DNA of 31,884 nt from a virus (taxonomy: Duplodnaviria; Heunggongvirae; Uroviricota; Caudoviricetes), in the IMG/VR virus record IMGVR_UViG_2541047931_000002, positions 1 to 31,884 of that record; one strand, 5' to 3'. Shown piece by piece: positions 15,549 to 20,052 of this stretch (its first letter is position 1; the number at the start of each line of letters is the position of its first letter). The position numbers and the translations under genes are program-made. The notes beneath the pieces were generated by a model, which made no database searches, was not told where the DNA came from, and saw nothing but the letters and a program-made list of their open reading frames with translations.

Positions 15549-17302
15549 AGAATTAACAGGTCCTCATCAGGATCAAGCGTGGACAGAAAGTCATTCACGC
15601 CCCCTCCATTTACCAGAAAGCGGCTCATGGCTGTAAAAAGCGCAACAGGGCCGTCGATTTTGGCTTCCGGCGTGGATTTATTCGGGAAGATGTTGTCGTT
15701 TTTGTCCGGTTTTACAGTAACGTTAGACATCATCCAGTTCATGACCGGATGATTGCTGTGATGGAAACGCCCGGCATAAACCAGTGATTCCGTTTCCTTC
15801 ATGGCCTCTGACAGATTGCGGACCGTCTGCGGAACCTCCACCAGCGGTATCCCTTCTTCAGCCAGTGCCAGGCTGAACTGCATTGCGCTCCACGGGTCAA
15901 ATCCCAGTTCCCTGAGGTTTTCACCGCCAATCCATTCCAGTAAGTCACTTTTTATCTGAGCATGATCGATAACATCGCCATCCGTCAGGATGAGCTTATC
16001 CATCTCCGCCCACTTCCGGTAAAGTTCTGCCTGCTGCCGCGAGCATCGTTCCAGCCGTCCTTCCGGAAGCCAGAATTTAAAATCAGCATGAACATGTCCG
16101 TTATCGGTTCGCCAGAGTTTTGCCGCCGCACAGATATCAATCTTATGAGCAAGGTCGACGCCGACCCACATGGGATATGTTTTCAGCTCATGTTGTGGAG
16201 CAATGTATTCGCACTTCTCCCACTTAATCATATCCATCCAGGCAGATTCGGCAGTGACCCACACATTCATGTGTTTGGTAAAAAAATTCACCCGCGCAGA
16301 GACCTGCTCCTTCGCTTTTTTCGCCAGACGACGCAGATCATCCCAGCGTTTACAGATGCCCAGGCCAGGATTCGCTTTCTGCCAGACCGTTTCATCAAAC
16401 GGATCATCTCCCTCATCAAGCGTGTAAATGATCGCAAAGTAAGAGTCGTCTTTTACAGCGCCCTCCACGTCGCTGTTAAAGCCTCGCAATACCTTGATGG
16501 CGTAATCACGCTGCTCGTAACAAATCCCTTCCTTGTTAAAGCCAGCCGTGGTGATACCAAATAACAGGGACTGCAGACGGGCACCGGTTGCCGTTTCCAG
16601 AACGTCCCACACGTCGCGGGTTTTATGTGCATGCAGCTCATCAATAATGGCGCAGTGGATGTTCAGACCGTCCAGGTTGTTTGCATCCGAGGAAAGCGGT
16701 TCAAATTTTGATGCGCTCTGCTCCTGGTAAATCGCCAGCTTGTTGAAATCAAACAACCGCCCGAGTGTCGACCGGGCTTTTCTGACCATATTTTTGGCGT
16801 CTTCAAACACGATTCTGGCCTGGTCACGCGTGGTTGCGGCTGAATACACCTCAGCTCCGCCTTCACTATCTGCCCCCGTCATATACAGGCCGATACCCGA
16901 TGACAGTGTTGATTTTGCGTTTTTACGGGCGACTTCGTTGTACGCCGTCCGGAACCGGCGCACCATCACCGGACGTCCGCTGCCATCGCTGCGCATGACA
17001 ACTTCCCCGGTTTCTTCATTGACCAGCGGAATGACAAAACCAAAAATATTAATGAGGATAAATACATGCCAGTCCATCAACTCAATGGGCTGGCCTGCCA
17101 GTGCCCCTTTTACATGAGGCACAAATTTGTAGAAATTCAGGATGTGCTGCGCACGGGGTTCACTGAAATAAATCCCCCGCTTTTCGCCGTACTTCAGATC
17201 ATCAAGAAAACGCTGGCAGGCCAGGCGGACAAATTCGCCAGCAACAATTTCTCCTGCAACAACACGTTCGGCGTAGCGGATCCCGTCAGCCACTTTTGCC
17301 AT
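15545..17302 (-). CDS. Terminase large subunit
   Basis: 585-aa ORF with N-terminal ATPase and C-terminal nuclease regions; start overlaps the TerS stop (TGATG). Confidence 0.9.
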   Translation of the reverse strand: MAKVADGIRYAERVVAGEIVAGEFVRLACQRFLDDLKYGEKRGIYFSEPRAQHILNFYKFVPHVKGALAGQPIELMDWHVFILINIFGFVIPLVNEETGEVVMRSDGSGRPVMVRRFRTAYNEVARKNAKSTLSSGIGLYMTGADSEGGAEVYSAATTRDQARIVFEDAKNMVRKARSTLGRLFDFNKLAIYQEQSASKFEPLSSDANNLDGLNIHCAIIDELHAHKTRDVWDVLETATGARLQSLLFGITTAGFNKEGICYEQRDYAIKVLRGFNSDVEGAVKDDSYFAIIYTLDEGDDPFDETVWQKANPGLGICKRWDDLRRLAKKAKEQVSARVNFFTKHMNVWVTAESAWMDMIKWEKCEYIAPQHELKTYPMWVGVDLAHKIDICAAAKLWRTDNGHVHADFKFWLPEGRLERCSRQQAELYRKWAEMDKLILTDGDVIDHAQIKSDLLEWIGGENLRELGFDPWSAMQFSLALAEEGIPLVEVPQTVRNLSEAMKETESLVYAGRFHHSNHPVMNWMMSNVTVKPDKNDNIFPNKSTPEAKIDGPVALFTAMSRFLVNGGGVNDFLSTLDPDEDLLIL

Positions 17303-17784
17303 CAGTCTCTCGCTTTTAAAAGCTCTGCCAGCGGATCAACATTATCCGGTCCGGCGGTATTTACTTTTGCCCGGCTTGCCGGTGACATACCAAATTCTGC
17401 AAGCATCGCCCGGATCCGCTTCCAGGCATCCGCTTTCATCGCAGCAGCCGGGTGTGCCTTAATCAGCACATCACCGTTCTGCGTTTCCGAGCGGTAGGTG
17501 TACCCCTCAACATCGAGTGTTTCGCAGTGATGCCGGTATTCGGTATAGGCTTCCACCAGTAGCTCAAGCGCACGCGCATCAAGCTGAGAAATGATCCCTT
17601 CCGCATTCAGCTCTTCCGCCATTCGCCTGAACCAGTACTTCCCCTGCGCCCCTAAATGTTGCGGAATTTTAGGGAGACCTTTTTCATCCTTTTTAGCGGT
17701 TTTTTTGAGGTCTTTAACTGGCCGCTTTGAGGGGTTGCCTCGTATCAAATGCAGGCGTGGCGGGATTTTCGGGGGTCCAGACAT
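17302..17784 (-). CDS. Terminase small subunit (P27 / HK97-like)
   Basis: 160-aa ORF MSGPPKIPPRLHLIRGNPSKRPVKDLKK... directly upstream of TerL; an HNH endonuclease is nearby, as in HK97-like cos phages. Confidence 0.8.
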   Translation of the reverse strand: MSGPPKIPPRLHLIRGNPSKRPVKDLKKTAKKDEKGLPKIPQHLGAQGKYWFRRMAEELNAEGIISQLDARALELLVEAYTEYRHHCETLDVEGYTYRSETQNGDVLIKAHPAAAMKADAWKRIRAMLAEFGMSPASRAKVNTAGPDNVDPLAELLKARD

Positions 17785-18013
17785 AATCGGTTTTACCTAT
17801 CAATCATTTAATCACATTCCAAAAAAAAGTTTTCGAACCTGCGGCGATGCGAGGAAAGGTCAGGCGGCGGTACTGAGCAGCCTGGGTTGCAGAGATTTGA
17901 TCCCCCCCCTCCCCCTTGAAGATGGCGGCAAAAAGCAGATACTGGCCACCCATCAGGATGCTCAGCATGGTGTATTCAGTTAATCTCAATAAATAAAAGA
18001 TGGAGTCTAAGAA

Positions 18014-18529
18014 ATGGATAAAACCAGAAAATATGACAGAGCCTTACAACTTGAAATCCTCAATGCCCTTATAGATTGCGCGCCTAACTCTTTAAACAAG
18101 GCACAGGAGCGAGACCTCATTGAGAAGTTTGACAGTTACGATCACTTTGTGGCGTGCATGTTATACCTTGAAATGCATGGTCTCGTTTCCACCCCCTTCA
18201 TACGCAGTGACACCATGGCTGGCGTTGAGTTTATCTTCTGTGCCCCTAACTGCTACATTACAGAAAAAGGAATTGATTTTCTTCTCGATGATGGCGGCTT
18301 AAGTGCGATCCTTAAAGTTCAGACCTTTCGGTTACACAGTGACACGATTGTTGCCCTTGAGGATATAATCCGTGTCGCAAATATATCTGAAGATCAGAAG
18401 AAGGGATTGATTTCAAAACTCCGAGAGCTTCCGGGAGACGCCATAAAACATTTGACCCTACAGTTACTGACTCAGGGGGTTCTGAATCTGCCGAACGCAC
18501 TTCGACTAATTCAAACAACCCTCCAGTAG
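18014..18529 (+). CDS. Hypothetical protein (171 aa), opposite-strand cargo gene between lysis and packaging modules
   Basis: ATG with GGAG about 10 nt upstream; lower GC than its flanks; hairpin GGGGCGAATT/AATTTGCCCC (18546-18571) plus T-run after the stop; no family recognised. Confidence 0.5.
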   Translation: MDKTRKYDRALQLEILNALIDCAPNSLNKAQERDLIEKFDSYDHFVACMLYLEMHGLVSTPFIRSDTMAGVEFIFCAPNCYITEKGIDFLLDDGGLSAILKVQTFRLHSDTIVALEDIIRVANISEDQKKGLISKLRELPGDAIKHLTLQLLTQGVLNLPNALRLIQTTLQ

Positions 18530-18664
18530 GGCTAAACTCATCTGAGGGGCGAATTAACTCAAATTTGCCCCATCCCAGTTTTTCACTTAAAACAACCCAA
18601 AATCCCTCCCGGGTATCTGCATGAATATAGAAACTATTTTTATGCATTACAGCAGTGAATATTA

Positions 18665-19015
18665 TCATCGAATACGTTCCCTTGCTGTCTTCTCTCTGTG
18701 GCATTCCCTGCATAACGACTCAAGATTGGAGTCATCATCGGTGCCGCCATGAGCTTTTGGAATCATGTGGTCTACAGTCCTGGCCTCAACGGCTCGTCCA
18801 TTGCGCAGACAGTTCTTACACAGATGGTTATCACGCTTCAGTATACGCGCACGTATAACATCCCATTTCGAGCCATAGCCACGCTGGTGGCGACTCAGTC
18901 CGCGTTGATGCTGTACCCATCCTTCACCACGATGTTTATCGCAGTAACCAGAACTGTCTGTGGTTGTACCTGCGCATCCACGCTTACGGCAGGCACGTGG
19001 GATTCGTGATGGCAT
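18665..19015 (-). CDS. HNH endonuclease (packaging-associated)
   Basis: 116-aa ORF with Cys/His clusters (CRKRGC...CDKH...HLCKNC...DHMIPKAHGGTDDDSNLESLCRECHREK). Confidence 0.85.
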   Translation of the reverse strand: MPSRIPRACRKRGCAGTTTDSSGYCDKHRGEGWVQHQRGLSRHQRGYGSKWDVIRARILKRDNHLCKNCLRNGRAVEARTVDHMIPKAHGGTDDDSNLESLCRECHREKTARERIR

Positions 19016-19057: not shown

Positions 19058-19522
19058 CTACTTAATGCACTGAGTGCGGATATACTCCTGTGCCCCTTCC
19101 AGTTGCATCTGCATCGTCATCAGCCGCTCTCTGAGGGTGAAATAATCCCGTTCAGCGGTGTCTGCCTGTCGGGGGCTGGTTGCATTATCCACGCCGGAGG
19201 CGGTGGTGGCTTCACGCACTGACTGACAGACTGCTTTGATGTGCAACCGACGACGACCAGCGGCAACATCATCACGCAAAGCATCATTTTCAGCCTTCGC
19301 ATCAGCTAACTCCTTCAGGTATTTTGCATCGAGTGCAGCAACATCACGCTGGCGTATCTGCATGTCAGTAATGATTGCGGTCGCCTGGTTGAGTTTTTCC
19401 ATCACATTATCGCGTTGCGCTTTGTAGGTAATGGCATTATCACGGTAATGATTAACAGCCCATGACAGGCAGACGATGATGCAGATAACCAGAGCATAAA
19501 TAATCGCGGCAACTCTGCTCAC
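19058..19522 (-). CDS. Rz: Spanin, inner-membrane subunit Rz
   Basis: Frame of ORF 19058..19537; start placed at GTG 19522 ([38 protein letters not shown]...), which overlaps the endolysin stop (GTGA); closely resembles lambda Rz. Confidence 0.85.
19120..19302 (-). CDS. Rz1: Spanin, outer-membrane lipoprotein subunit Rz1 (embedded in Rz, other frame)
   Basis: 60-aa [45 protein letters not shown]... with lipobox VVGC and proline-rich segment; nested in Rz. Confidence 0.8.
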
Positions 19523-20052
19523 TGCTCTATCCCCCAACAGGCTAATGCGCTCTCCTGATCACGACGAATAACCTGACCGTAACAGTTATTTGAACGAAGG
19601 CGGCAATCGCGCCCCCTGTCCTTAATCCACCAGCGAATCGCCTCGCAGGCACCTTTACGATCACCTGCATTCAGCCGCTTATAAAATGTCGACGGAAAAC
19701 ACTTACCGGGGCCAATGTTATAGGGACAAAATGACGCGATACCCGCTTTTTGTGGTTCGGTCAGTGTTACTTTAATATTGCGATCCACCCATGCCAGCGC
19801 CTTATCACGTTCAATAGCGTTAACCTGGTCGCATTTTTCCTTCGACAGTTTCATACCGGGAAAAACGGGTTTTCCATCCACCATCGTGGCACCCCGACAG
19901 ATGGTCCAGATGCCGGACCCATCGCGGTATGCCGTTGTGTGGTTACCTTCTTTTTCATCCAGAAACTGGTCGAGAATATCAGGCGCGGGCGCACCGACGG
20001 CAATCAGTGCCAGAACGGCAGCCGACAGGCCGTATCTGATTTTTGCGTTCAT
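19519..20052 (-). CDS. R: SAR endolysin (T4-lysozyme-like, N-terminal signal-anchor-release domain)
   Basis: 177-aa [57 protein letters not shown]...; hydrophobic N-terminus followed by lysozyme catalytic region; resembles the R of Stx-type and phage-21-type phages. Confidence 0.85.

What the first reader, a model, noticed from the sequence alone, without database searches (positions are those of the whole stretch)
18014..18529. Unassigned 171-aa gene on the opposite strand between the lysis and packaging modules
In lambdoid phages the slot between Rz/Rz1 (or the HNH gene) and the small terminase usually holds a lysogenic-conversion or accessory gene, such as bor in lambda. Here it holds a 171-aa ORF transcribed against the late operon, with its own RBS, lower GC than its flanks and a hairpin plus T-run after the stop: the classic moron layout. 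I recognise no family in the predicted helical, Leu/Asp-rich protein. A prophage-expressed single gene at this hotspot is a reasonable candidate for a superinfection-exclusion or anti-phage function.
Basis: partly seen in the sequence, partly recalled or inferred. Interest (0 to 1): 0.7.

Follow-up and report, generated by a model that had tools for sequence, protein, structure and literature searches.

The report
Prophage moron hiding an overlapping antisense gene
The unassigned 171-aa gene is real and behaves like a mobile prophage accessory gene, but it is half of a two-gene cassette: an unannotated gene of about 100 aa on the other strand shares its last 40-70 codons, an arrangement that looks like a lysogeny/lysis toggle.

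Summary
The ORF at 18014..18529 (+) is a real gene. It belongs to phrog_3983 (function unknown), a family with more than 1000 clusters at 50% identity, and has no Pfam, NCBIfam or PADLOC match. The model shows an acidic winged-helix N-domain and a four-helix C-domain. It lies in a low-GC 822-bp segment between the HNH and small-terminase genes. Ten of the 11 related phage records matched lack this segment, and only 27 of 714 E. coli genomes with the flank carry it.

The "intergenic hairpin and T-run" is coding sequence. A minus-strand gene, orfB (18312..18668, 118 aa), starts on the HNH stop (ATGA) and runs 218 nt into the 3' end of the plus-strand gene. orfB has a coding signature, a confident beta-fold model, and diverged counterparts in Acinetobacter and Pseudomonas phages. 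Synonymous variation in the plus-strand gene collapses inside the overlap (1.51 to 0.38 bits, p = 6e-10). The orfB frame stays open there in 52 of 52 cassettes (P = 0.0015 under synonymous shuffling).

The cassette sits in many phage contexts, with orfB nearly always co-directional with the flanking operon. A conserved palindrome lies upstream of the plus-strand gene.

The function is inferred, not shown. I propose a DNA-binding factor made in the lysogen, silenced and antagonised by orfB during lytic growth.

The parts
17915..18735 (.). Low-GC cassette-bearing segment that replaces about 90 bp found in related phages such as phi467. The right junction lies inside the 3' end of the HNH gene.
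   Evidence: blastn breakpoints at 17914 and 18736. GC 0.432 against 0.51 in the flanks. 27 of 714 E. coli genomes with the flank carry it. 10 of the 11 related phage records matched lack it.
17942..17956 (+). Operator-like palindrome, CTGGC-CACCC-ATCAG here (family consensus CTGAT-N5-ATCAG, followed by GAT). It lies about 25 nt upstream of the -10-like hexamer.
   Evidence: CTG-N8-TCAGG is found 72-87 nt upstream of the gene in 55 of 82 unique upstream regions, against 0.011 expected per region. Consensus from 22 non-redundant regions in different phage contexts.
17981..17986 (+). -10-like hexamer TAATCT (family pattern TAnnCT). No good -35 element.
   Evidence: Conserved position in the anchored alignment. 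The consensus promoter scan found nothing, so this is tentative.
18002..18005 (+). Shine-Dalgarno GGAG, 8 nt before the ATG.
   Evidence: Sequence. Conserved in other cassettes.
18014..18529 (+). The plus-strand gene, called SELF here: 171 aa, phrog_3983. Winged-helix N-domain (residues 1-90) plus a four-helix C-domain (residues 96-170). Cytoplasmic, pI 5.3.
18312..18668 (-). orfB: an unannotated gene of 118 aa. Its ATG overlaps the HNH stop codon (ATGA). Residues 1-70 form a five-strand beta domain, and the C-terminal tail is variable.
   Evidence: Conserved ORF in diverse contexts. Codon-position entropies 0.56-0.74, 0.45-0.54 and 1.23-1.32 bits in the non-overlapping 46 codons. AlphaFold2 pLDDT 81-91 for residues 1-70. 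An orfB HMM match in 101 of 112 loci with the plus-strand gene. SD sequences in contexts without HNH.
18312..18529 (.). 218-nt region read on both strands. The strongly constrained core is 18404-18529 (SELF codons 131-171, orfB codons 47-88).
   Evidence: Entropy at conserved four-fold codons is 1.51 bits (n=34) outside and 0.38 bits (n=21) inside the overlap, Mann-Whitney p = 6e-10. In the last 15 SELF codons position 2 varies more than position 3. The antisense frame is open for at least 41 codons in 52 of 52 cassettes, against P = 0.0015 under synonymous shuffling.
18546..18571 (+). It lies inside orfB, and its arms encode Trp-Gly and Arg-Pro.
18665..19015 (-). HNH endonuclease gene of the late operon. 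It lies immediately upstream of orfB on the same strand.
   Evidence: PF01844, E = 9e-16.
17302..17784 (-). Small terminase subunit (P27 / Terminase_4 family), the next late gene downstream of the cassette.
   Evidence: PF05119, E = 5e-25.

Best explanation
The locus is a mobile two-gene prophage cassette of about 730 bp (17941-18668), not a single moron gene.

Shown:
- SELF (18014..18529, +) is a conserved cytoplasmic protein with a winged-helix N-domain and a four-helix C-domain. A conserved palindrome and an RBS precede it.
- orfB (18312..18668, -) is a conserved beta-rich protein of about 90-118 aa.
- The two genes converge and share at least 125 nt in every cassette examined (218 nt here). 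That shared stretch is under selection in both reading frames.
- orfB almost always points the same way as the surrounding phage operon and starts at or just after the stop of the preceding gene. SELF points against that operon.

Inferred:
- In the lysogen, SELF is transcribed from its own promoter. The winged-helix domain probably controls that promoter through the palindrome.
- SELF acts as a DNA-binding accessory factor, most likely in conflicts with other phages (superinfection exclusion or defence).
- When the prophage enters lytic growth, transcription of the flanking operon runs through orfB and then antisense across SELF. This shuts SELF off by transcriptional interference and RNA pairing.
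- The same transcript produces OrfB protein, which neutralises the SELF protein already present, so the phage does not suffer from its own factor.
For: SELF is real and widespread:
- phrog_3983, E = 1e-56.
- 194 clusters at 90% identity and 1029 representatives at 50% identity, all about 160-170 aa.
- Position-3 bias in substitutions.
- AlphaFold2 mean pLDDT 84.5.

Fold of SELF:
- The top Foldseek hits are PadR-type regulators.

orfB is real:
- It is conserved next to HNH, GT2, tape-measure, Arc/Ant and Q genes.
- It has a coding signature in its non-overlapping part.
- SD sequences or ATGA coupling precede it.
- The fold model is confident and includes a strand encoded inside the overlap.
- Diverged counterparts occupy the same relative frame in Acinetobacter and Pseudomonas phages. 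In Acinetobacter the differences at codon positions 1/2/3 are 12/9/22.

Dual coding:
- Synonymous suppression is confined to the overlap and is flanked on both sides by normal synonymous diversity.
- The orfB frame is kept open.

Autonomy and orientation:
- In 66 of 73 viral loci both neighbouring ORFs are opposite to SELF.
- SELF is co-oriented with cI or Mnt-like repressors in three phages.
- SELF-only cassettes carry a proper hairpin-T terminator after the gene.

Operator: the upstream palindrome is present in 55 of 82 regions against 0.011 expected.

Precedents:
- Tha/Ith in S. aureus prophages, where a small overlapping antisense gene product switches off a prophage defence on induction (PMC11087260).
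- Antisense-overlapping exclusion genes in Pseudomonas phage Fc02 (PMC9936078).
Against: - There are no expression data. The sigma-70 scan finds no promoter and the -35 is poor.
- There is no hit to any known defence model.
- The winged-helix domain is acidic (pI 4.7). Its putative recognition helix is hydrophobic with few basic residues. That is atypical for a DNA binder and could mean protein binding instead.
- ECOR13 is reported susceptible to T4, lambda-vir and T7, so any protection is not broad.
- Nothing shows that OrfB touches SELF.
- In some contexts orfB lies just downstream of a terminator (L003, L087), so read-through expression is assumed rather than shown.
Confidence: 0.45

Rival explanations
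1. Regulatory module for the prophage itself. SELF is an auxiliary repressor or roadblock that keeps leaky lytic or late transcription (for example of terminase) silent in the lysogen. OrfB is its antirepressor, made once lytic transcription starts. No other phage is targeted.
For: - Winged-helix fold and an operator-like palindrome.
- Homologues sit inside immunity regions: after cI, after an Arc/Mnt-like gene, and beside Ant or Rha genes.
- The antagonistic gene orientation fits a switch.
- ECOR13 shows no broad phage resistance.
Against: - The cassette is dispensable. Most close relatives lack it.
- It occurs in many unrelated positions and phage types, which fits an accessory function better than a core regulator.
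- The palindrome does not recur at other promoters in the window.
Confidence: 0.25
2. Toxin-antitoxin or abortive-infection-like pair. OrfB is a harmful effector. SELF is its regulator or antidote and also supplies an antisense RNA over the orfB 3' end, as in type I systems.
For: - A two-gene mobile module whose partner has a winged-helix DNA-binding fold, as many antitoxins do.
- A 3' antisense overlap.
- Location in prophages, where such systems are common.
Against: - The genes converge instead of forming one operon.
- No PADLOC, Pfam or NCBIfam toxin or antitoxin match.
- SELF occurs alone in several lineages with its own terminator. orfB was never seen without SELF, because part of it is encoded inside SELF. 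This is the opposite of a dispensable antidote.
- orfB has no room for a promoter of its own in most contexts.
Confidence: 0.12
3. orfB is not translated. The constraint on the 3' end of SELF and on the downstream 140 nt comes from an RNA element: a terminator, an antisense RNA or another structure.
For: - A stable hairpin lies just after the SELF stop in the E. coli-type cassettes.
- Gene callers almost never call orfB; only 17 clusters exist in 5.8 billion proteins.
- There is no proteomic evidence.
Against: - Third-position variation is more than twice that of positions 1 and 2 in the orfB frame outside the overlap. The same holds for the Acinetobacter pair.
- A conserved ATG with SD, or ATGA coupling, precedes it.
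- The frame is kept open in 52 of 52 cassettes against P = 0.0015.
- The fold model is confident.
- The hairpin is not conserved in distant cassettes.
- No Rfam match.
Confidence: 0.07
4. One reading: one autonomous moron gene with its own promoter and intrinsic terminator, and nothing else in the gap.
For: ORF, RBS, low GC and opposite strand are all present. Some distant relatives (L006, L079) do have exactly this layout.
Against: In this window, and in about 100 of 112 loci, the gap is occupied by orfB. The terminator scan is negative on the + strand.
Confidence: 0.05

Closest known systems
Lambdoid morons such as lambda bor and HK97 gp15 (from my own knowledge of the literature)
   Same: A small accessory unit present in some relatives and absent in others. 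It has a different GC content, is inserted between late genes, and is transcribed against or independently of the late operon. The lysis-packaging interval and the tape-measure region are the same hotspots.
   Different: No sequence or fold relation. bor and gp15 are envelope proteins, whereas SELF is cytoplasmic with a winged helix. This cassette carries a second gene that overlaps the first on the opposite strand.
Tha/Ith 'noncontiguous operon' of S. aureus prophages (PMC11087260)
   Same: A prophage-expressed factor and a small antisense, overlapping gene whose product inhibits it. Opposed transcription makes lysogenic and lytic expression mutually exclusive.
   Different: No homology. Tha is a HEPN effector in the cI operon, and ith has its own constitutive promoter. 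Here the small gene rides on the phage lytic operon, and the larger gene has the private promoter. The function here is untested.
Overlapping exclusion genes olg1/olg2 and gene 10 of Pseudomonas phage Fc02 (PMC9936078)
   Same: Protein-coding genes overlapping on opposite strands in a temperate phage. One is expressed in the lysogen and the other in the lytic operon.
   Different: Different phage type (a beetrevirus) and different genome position. tblastn of SELF against 50,697 phage records matched only four Pseudomonas records, none of them Fc02. That overlap is at the lysis-lysogeny switch.
PadR, MarR and YjcQ-type winged-helix proteins
   Different: Below every Pfam threshold (YjcQ 12.5 bits against a cut-off of 23.3). 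The domain is acidic. The C-domain is a different four-helix unit. DNA binding is untested.
Excludon and type I antisense arrangements (from my own knowledge)
   Same: A long transcript for one gene is antisense to the convergent neighbour, so the two expression states are coupled in opposite directions.
   Different: Here the antisense segment is itself translated, and both reading frames are conserved.

Membership tests
phrog_3983 (phage protein family of unknown function) | Full-length match to the family HMM | tested here: met
   E = 1e-56, residues 5-171 against profile positions 2-164 of 165.
Moron / prophage accessory cassette | Present in some close relatives and absent in others, at the same slot | tested here: met
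   10 of the 11 related phage records matched lack it. 27 of 714 E. coli genomes with the flank carry it. Breakpoints at 17914 and 18736.
Moron / prophage accessory cassette | Base composition different from the flanks | tested here: met
   GC 0.432 against 0.51.
Moron / prophage accessory cassette | Own promoter and own terminator | tested here: inconclusive
   A conserved upstream palindrome and a -10-like hexamer are present, but the consensus scan finds no promoter and no + strand terminator. The hairpin lies inside orfB.
Moron / prophage accessory cassette | Expressed from the repressed prophage | not testable with these tools
   Indirect evidence only: same strand as cI or Mnt-like genes in three phages and opposite to both neighbours in 66 of 73 loci.
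PadR family (PF03551) | Match to the Pfam model | tested here: not met
YjcQ family (PF09639) | Score above the gathering threshold | tested here: not met
Known anti-phage defence systems (PADLOC-DB 2.0) | Match of either protein to a defence-system model | tested here: not met
   No family at E <= 1 for SELF or for the 133-aa antisense ORF.
Type II toxin-antitoxin module | Two co-directional genes in one autoregulated operon | tested here: not met
   The genes converge and overlap at their 3' ends.
Antisense-overlapping (dual-coding) gene pair | Both frames show purifying selection, and synonymous variation is suppressed only in the overlap | tested here: met
Antisense-overlapping (dual-coding) gene pair | Both proteins detected | not testable with these tools
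   Needs ribosome profiling, mass spectrometry or epitope tagging.
Noncontiguous operon / excludon | A gene nested antisense within an operon, with overlapping opposed transcripts | tested here: inconclusive
   The geometry fits. The transcripts could not be observed.

The most novel reading that the evidence does not exclude
SELF and orfB form an ancient pair of convergent protein-coding genes, conserved from Enterobacterales to Pseudomonas and Acinetobacter phages. A shared dual-coding 3' segment hard-wires them into a lysogeny/lysis toggle. If so, this is a previously unrecognised class of prophage immunity factor with a built-in, antisense-encoded self-antidote, and gene callers have systematically missed the antidote.
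Probability: 0.3. Interest if true: 0.85.

Novelty: new variant of a known kind. Interest (0 to 1): 0.72.

Why it matters
- Long protein-coding overlaps on opposite strands are rare and usually contested in bacteria and phages. This case has unusually clean evolutionary evidence, across dozens of diverged cassettes in different genomic contexts. It also comes with ready separation-of-function mutations.
- The partner gene is absent from essentially all annotations. Only 17 unnamed clusters exist among 5.8 billion proteins. Surveys of prophage accessory or defence genes that rely on called genes will therefore misread this family, which has more than 1000 clusters, as a single-gene system.
- If the toggle model is right, it extends the principle of defence plus an antisense self-antidote, shown for Tha/Ith in staphylococcal phages, to Gram-negative prophages. 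It would also give a function to phrog_3983.

Tried and rejected
- **Protein A similarity.** The PDB sequence search gave E = 2e-7 to 9e-11 against multi-domain Protein A. Each single domain scores only 8-12 bits (per-domain E about 1-20), so the total is inflated by repeats. I treated it as a chance helical resemblance.
- **Family libraries.** Pfam, NCBIfam and PADLOC gave nothing significant for either ORF. Rfam gave nothing.
- **LexA box.** The upstream palindrome looked like one, but its spacing is CTG-N9-CAG rather than CTG-N10-CAG. Nor does it fit the FNR or CRP geometry as I remember them. Rejected.
- **Published transcriptomes.** The lysogeny-expressed antisense loci STMMW_20121 (ST64B) and STMMW_26411 (Gifsy-1) in Owen et al. 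(PMC7067206) looked promising. However, tblastn of SELF against 50,697 phage records found no Salmonella phage, so homology could not be established.
- **Literature.** A search for the accessions, the PHROG identifier and the phage name returned nothing.
- **Plasmids.** Only 5 records matched. Two are 4-5 Mb records, so probably chromosomes filed as plasmids, and two are identical-length 42-kb Stenotrophomonas records of uncertain nature.
- **orfB as a recent add-on.** I first thought it was specific to Enterobacterales. Diverged counterparts in Acinetobacter and Pseudomonas phages argue against that.
- **Motif counts.** Two early counts used the wrong spacing and should be ignored.

Full report
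**1. The observation**

The window is almost identical to Escherichia phage PhiR49_2 from E. coli ECOR13 (99.9% over 1.8 kb).

- The late operon runs on the minus strand. In order: holin 20471..20791, a YdfR-like gene, lysozyme 19519..20052, Rz/Rz1, HNH endonuclease 18665..19015, small terminase 17302..17784, large terminase and portal.
- Between HNH and terS lies the reported ORF, 18014..18529 on the plus strand. It is 171 aa, starts with ATG, and has GGAG 8 nt upstream.
- GC is 0.43-0.44, against 0.51 on either side.
- Compared with close relatives (92-97% identical DNA), 18 of 30 and 15 of 25 substitutions fall on third codon positions of the plus frame. The gene is therefore real.

**2. 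The plus-strand protein (called SELF here)**

- It matches phrog_3983, a family of unknown function, over its full length (E = 1e-56).
- Nothing is significant in Pfam, NCBIfam or PADLOC.
- The family is large. There are 194 clusters at 90% identity, all named "hypothetical". There are 1029 representatives at 50% identity, essentially all 160-170 aa with the same architecture.
- An AlphaFold2 model built on 44 homologues has mean pLDDT 84.5.
  - Residues 1-90 form a winged helix-turn-helix (pLDDT above 90).
  - Residues 96-170 form four helices (pLDDT 60-85).
- The protein has no hydrophobic segment. It is acidic overall, with pI 5.3, and the N-domain has pI 4.7.
- An apparent similarity to staphylococcal Protein A comes from summing weak hits over repeated domains.

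**3. A variable, mobile insert**

- Homology to phage phi467 stops at 17914 and resumes at 18736. This window has 822 bp there, against 90 bp in phi467.
- Ten of the 11 related phage records matched have HNH directly next to terS.
- Of 714 complete E. coli genomes that carry the terS-proximal flank, only 27 carry the insert.
- Homologues occur in at least six other kinds of position:
  - beside a GT2 glycosyltransferase in the lysis-packaging interval;
  - between the tape-measure and a minor tail gene;
  - between the Q antiterminator and the holin in Salmonella prophages;
  - after an Arc/Mnt-like gene opposite arc-ant in Edwardsiella phage GF-2;
  - after Ant genes;
  - after cI in Acinetobacter phage AbIPP1, and on the cI strand between cro and ydaT in Pseudomonas phage D14P.
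- In 66 of 73 IMG/VR loci, both neighbouring ORFs of at least 90 aa are on the strand opposite to the gene.
- It is virtually absent from plasmids.

**4. The gap is a second gene**

The 136-158 nt after the stop codon are of nearly constant length in unrelated contexts. Read on the minus strand, they encode a conserved peptide, MKIFTAVMHKNSFYIHADTR..FWV.LS..LGWGKF.LIRPSDEFS.

In this window the ORF, called orfB here, runs from 18668 to 18312 (118 aa). Its ATG overlaps the HNH stop codon as ATGA.

Evidence that it codes for protein:

- In 43 unique cassettes the first 46 codons, which lie outside the overlap, have entropies of 0.56-0.74, 0.45-0.54 and 1.23-1.32 bits at codon positions 1, 2 and 3.
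- In contexts without HNH, the ATG is preceded by strong Shine-Dalgarno sequences.
- An AlphaFold2 model from 16 sequences gives pLDDT 81-91 for residues 1-70, a five-strand beta domain. Its last strand (residues 49-58) is encoded inside the plus-strand gene.
- An HMM finds orfB in 101 of 112 loci that carry SELF. Three of those matches are partial and largely confined to the overlap.
- Acinetobacter and Pseudomonas phages have diverged counterparts in the same relative frame, with IGFLKF or IGFLHF in place of GWGKF. In the Acinetobacter pair, differences outside the overlap fall 12/9/22 on positions 1/2/3.

**5. Dual coding**

- orfB continues past the SELF stop codon for 41-75 codons in all 52 unique enterobacterial cassettes. 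When SELF codons are shuffled synonymously, the same frame stays open that far in only 0.15% of trials, and the mean open run is 10 codons.
- Third-position entropy at conserved four-fold-degenerate SELF codons is 1.51 bits over codons 1-117 (n=34). It is 0.38 bits over codons 131-171 (n=21). Mann-Whitney p = 6e-10.
- In the last 15 SELF codons, second positions, which are orfB third positions, vary more than third positions (0.46 against 0.35 bits).
- The low-diversity tract is bounded on one side by SELF codons with normal synonymous diversity and on the other by orfB codons with normal synonymous diversity. A recent recombination tract is therefore an unlikely explanation.
- The left boundary, near SELF codon 131 (18404), coincides with the end of the conserved part of OrfB (...LPEALEVLKS). 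Beyond it the orfB tail and stop position vary.
Its arms encode the conserved Trp-Gly and Arg-Pro. It is missing in distant cassettes, and the T-run is present in only 24 of 46.
- SELF homologues that lack orfB (L006, L079) have a different C-terminus. They are followed directly by a classical hairpin-T terminator.

**6. Upstream element**

- A palindrome lies 72-87 nt upstream of the gene in 55 of 82 unique upstream regions, against 0.011 expected per region. The consensus is CTGAT-N5-ATCAG followed by GAT. In this window it reads CTGGC-CACCC-ATCAG at 17942-17956.
- It occurs in cassettes with and without orfB and in different phage contexts.
- About 21-25 nt downstream is a -10-like TAnnCT (TAATCT at 17981-17986). 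There is no good -35, and the generic promoter scan is negative.
- The spacing does not fit a LexA box.
- I read it as an operator overlapping a weak promoter, most simply bound by the cassette's own winged-helix protein. This is an inference.

**7. How it most likely works**

Shown:

- There are two conserved convergent genes with a shared, doubly constrained 3' segment.
- The cassette is mobile.
- orfB is co-directional with, and abuts, the flanking phage operon.
- SELF is antisense to that operon and has a private upstream element.

Inferred:

- SELF is made in the lysogen.
- Lytic transcription through orfB runs antisense across SELF and silences it.
- OrfB protein antagonises the SELF protein that remains.

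This is the logic demonstrated for Tha/Ith in staphylococcal prophages (PMC11087260). It also resembles the antisense-overlapping exclusion genes of Pseudomonas phage Fc02 (PMC9936078).

What SELF does in the lysogen is unknown.

- Its behaviour as an accessory gene, and its positions at known moron hotspots, favour a role in phage-phage conflict.
- A role as an auxiliary repressor or roadblock for the prophage's own lytic genes is the main rival.
- Against a broad defence role: ECOR13 is reported natively susceptible to T4, lambda-vir and T7 (PMC9519451), and no PADLOC model matches.
- The acidic winged-helix domain leaves open that it binds protein rather than DNA.

**8. Verdict**

- The terminator is wrong, and the unit is not a single gene.
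- The moron interpretation is supported. The anti-phage function is not tested.
- The new point is the conserved antisense partner gene, which nobody has annotated.
- I rate this a new variant of a known kind: a prophage accessory module with an antisense-encoded partner. The family membership (phrog_3983) carries no functional information.

Noticed in passing
window 18665-19015 (- strand); L001 5525-5710: The GenBank record of PhiR49_2 does not annotate the HNH endonuclease gene (PF01844, E = 9e-16). Instead it lists a 61-aa hypothetical ORF on the opposite strand inside it. RefSeq E. coli genomes annotate the HNH gene correctly.
   Followed up: partly
window 17785-17914: The 130 nt next to terS are by far the most diverged stretch between otherwise close relatives (22-23% differences, against 5-6% within SELF). 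They contain a C-rich run, GATCCCCCCCCTCCCCC. This may be the cos / terminase-binding region evolving with terminase specificity.
   Followed up: no
window 17804-17989 (- strand): A 49-61 aa ORF is annotated as hypothetical in PhiR49_2 and in some RefSeq genomes (WP_154675861). It overlaps the palindrome and the -10-like element upstream of SELF. No family match was sought, and it may be a spurious call.
   Followed up: no
window 18665-18735: The last 24 or so codons of the HNH gene are not homologous at DNA level to phi467, although the rest of the gene is 95% identical. The recombination junction of the cassette therefore lies inside HNH, and the HNH stop has been fitted to the orfB start (ATGA).
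   Followed up: partly
L008 4659-6116, and 485-aa ORFs in L034-L057: In a second common context the cassette sits next to a 485-aa family-2 glycosyltransferase, in the same lysis-packaging interval. That is probably another lysogenic-conversion gene, which supports this interval as an accessory-gene hotspot.
   Followed up: no
L117 1471-2019 (Halomonas phage vB_HboP_4908): The deposited annotation calls a 182-aa ORF on the strand opposite to the SELF homologue (tblastn E = 4e-16). This is probably a wrong-strand gene call in a GC-rich genome.
   Followed up: no
window 22692-22942 (- strand): Two tRNA genes, Arg(tct) and Met(cat), lie upstream of the lysis genes. The PhiR49_2 record lists three tRNAs (Arg, Arg, Met) at positions that correspond to window 21128-21377. 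The window and that record therefore differ in this region.
   Followed up: no
L034-L056 and L095, about 10-30 nt upstream of the palindrome: In the GT2-type contexts a strong hairpin with an A-run (AAAAAAGCCGCACGATGGCGGCT) lies just upstream of the SELF palindrome. Read on the minus strand, it is an intrinsic terminator placed after the transcript has crossed orfB and the whole of SELF in antisense.
   Followed up: no
SELF residues 83-96 (window 18260-18301): The most conserved motif outside the overlap is T..GIDFL.DDGGL, at the junction of the two domains. Dual coding does not explain it, so it may mark the functional site.
   Followed up: no
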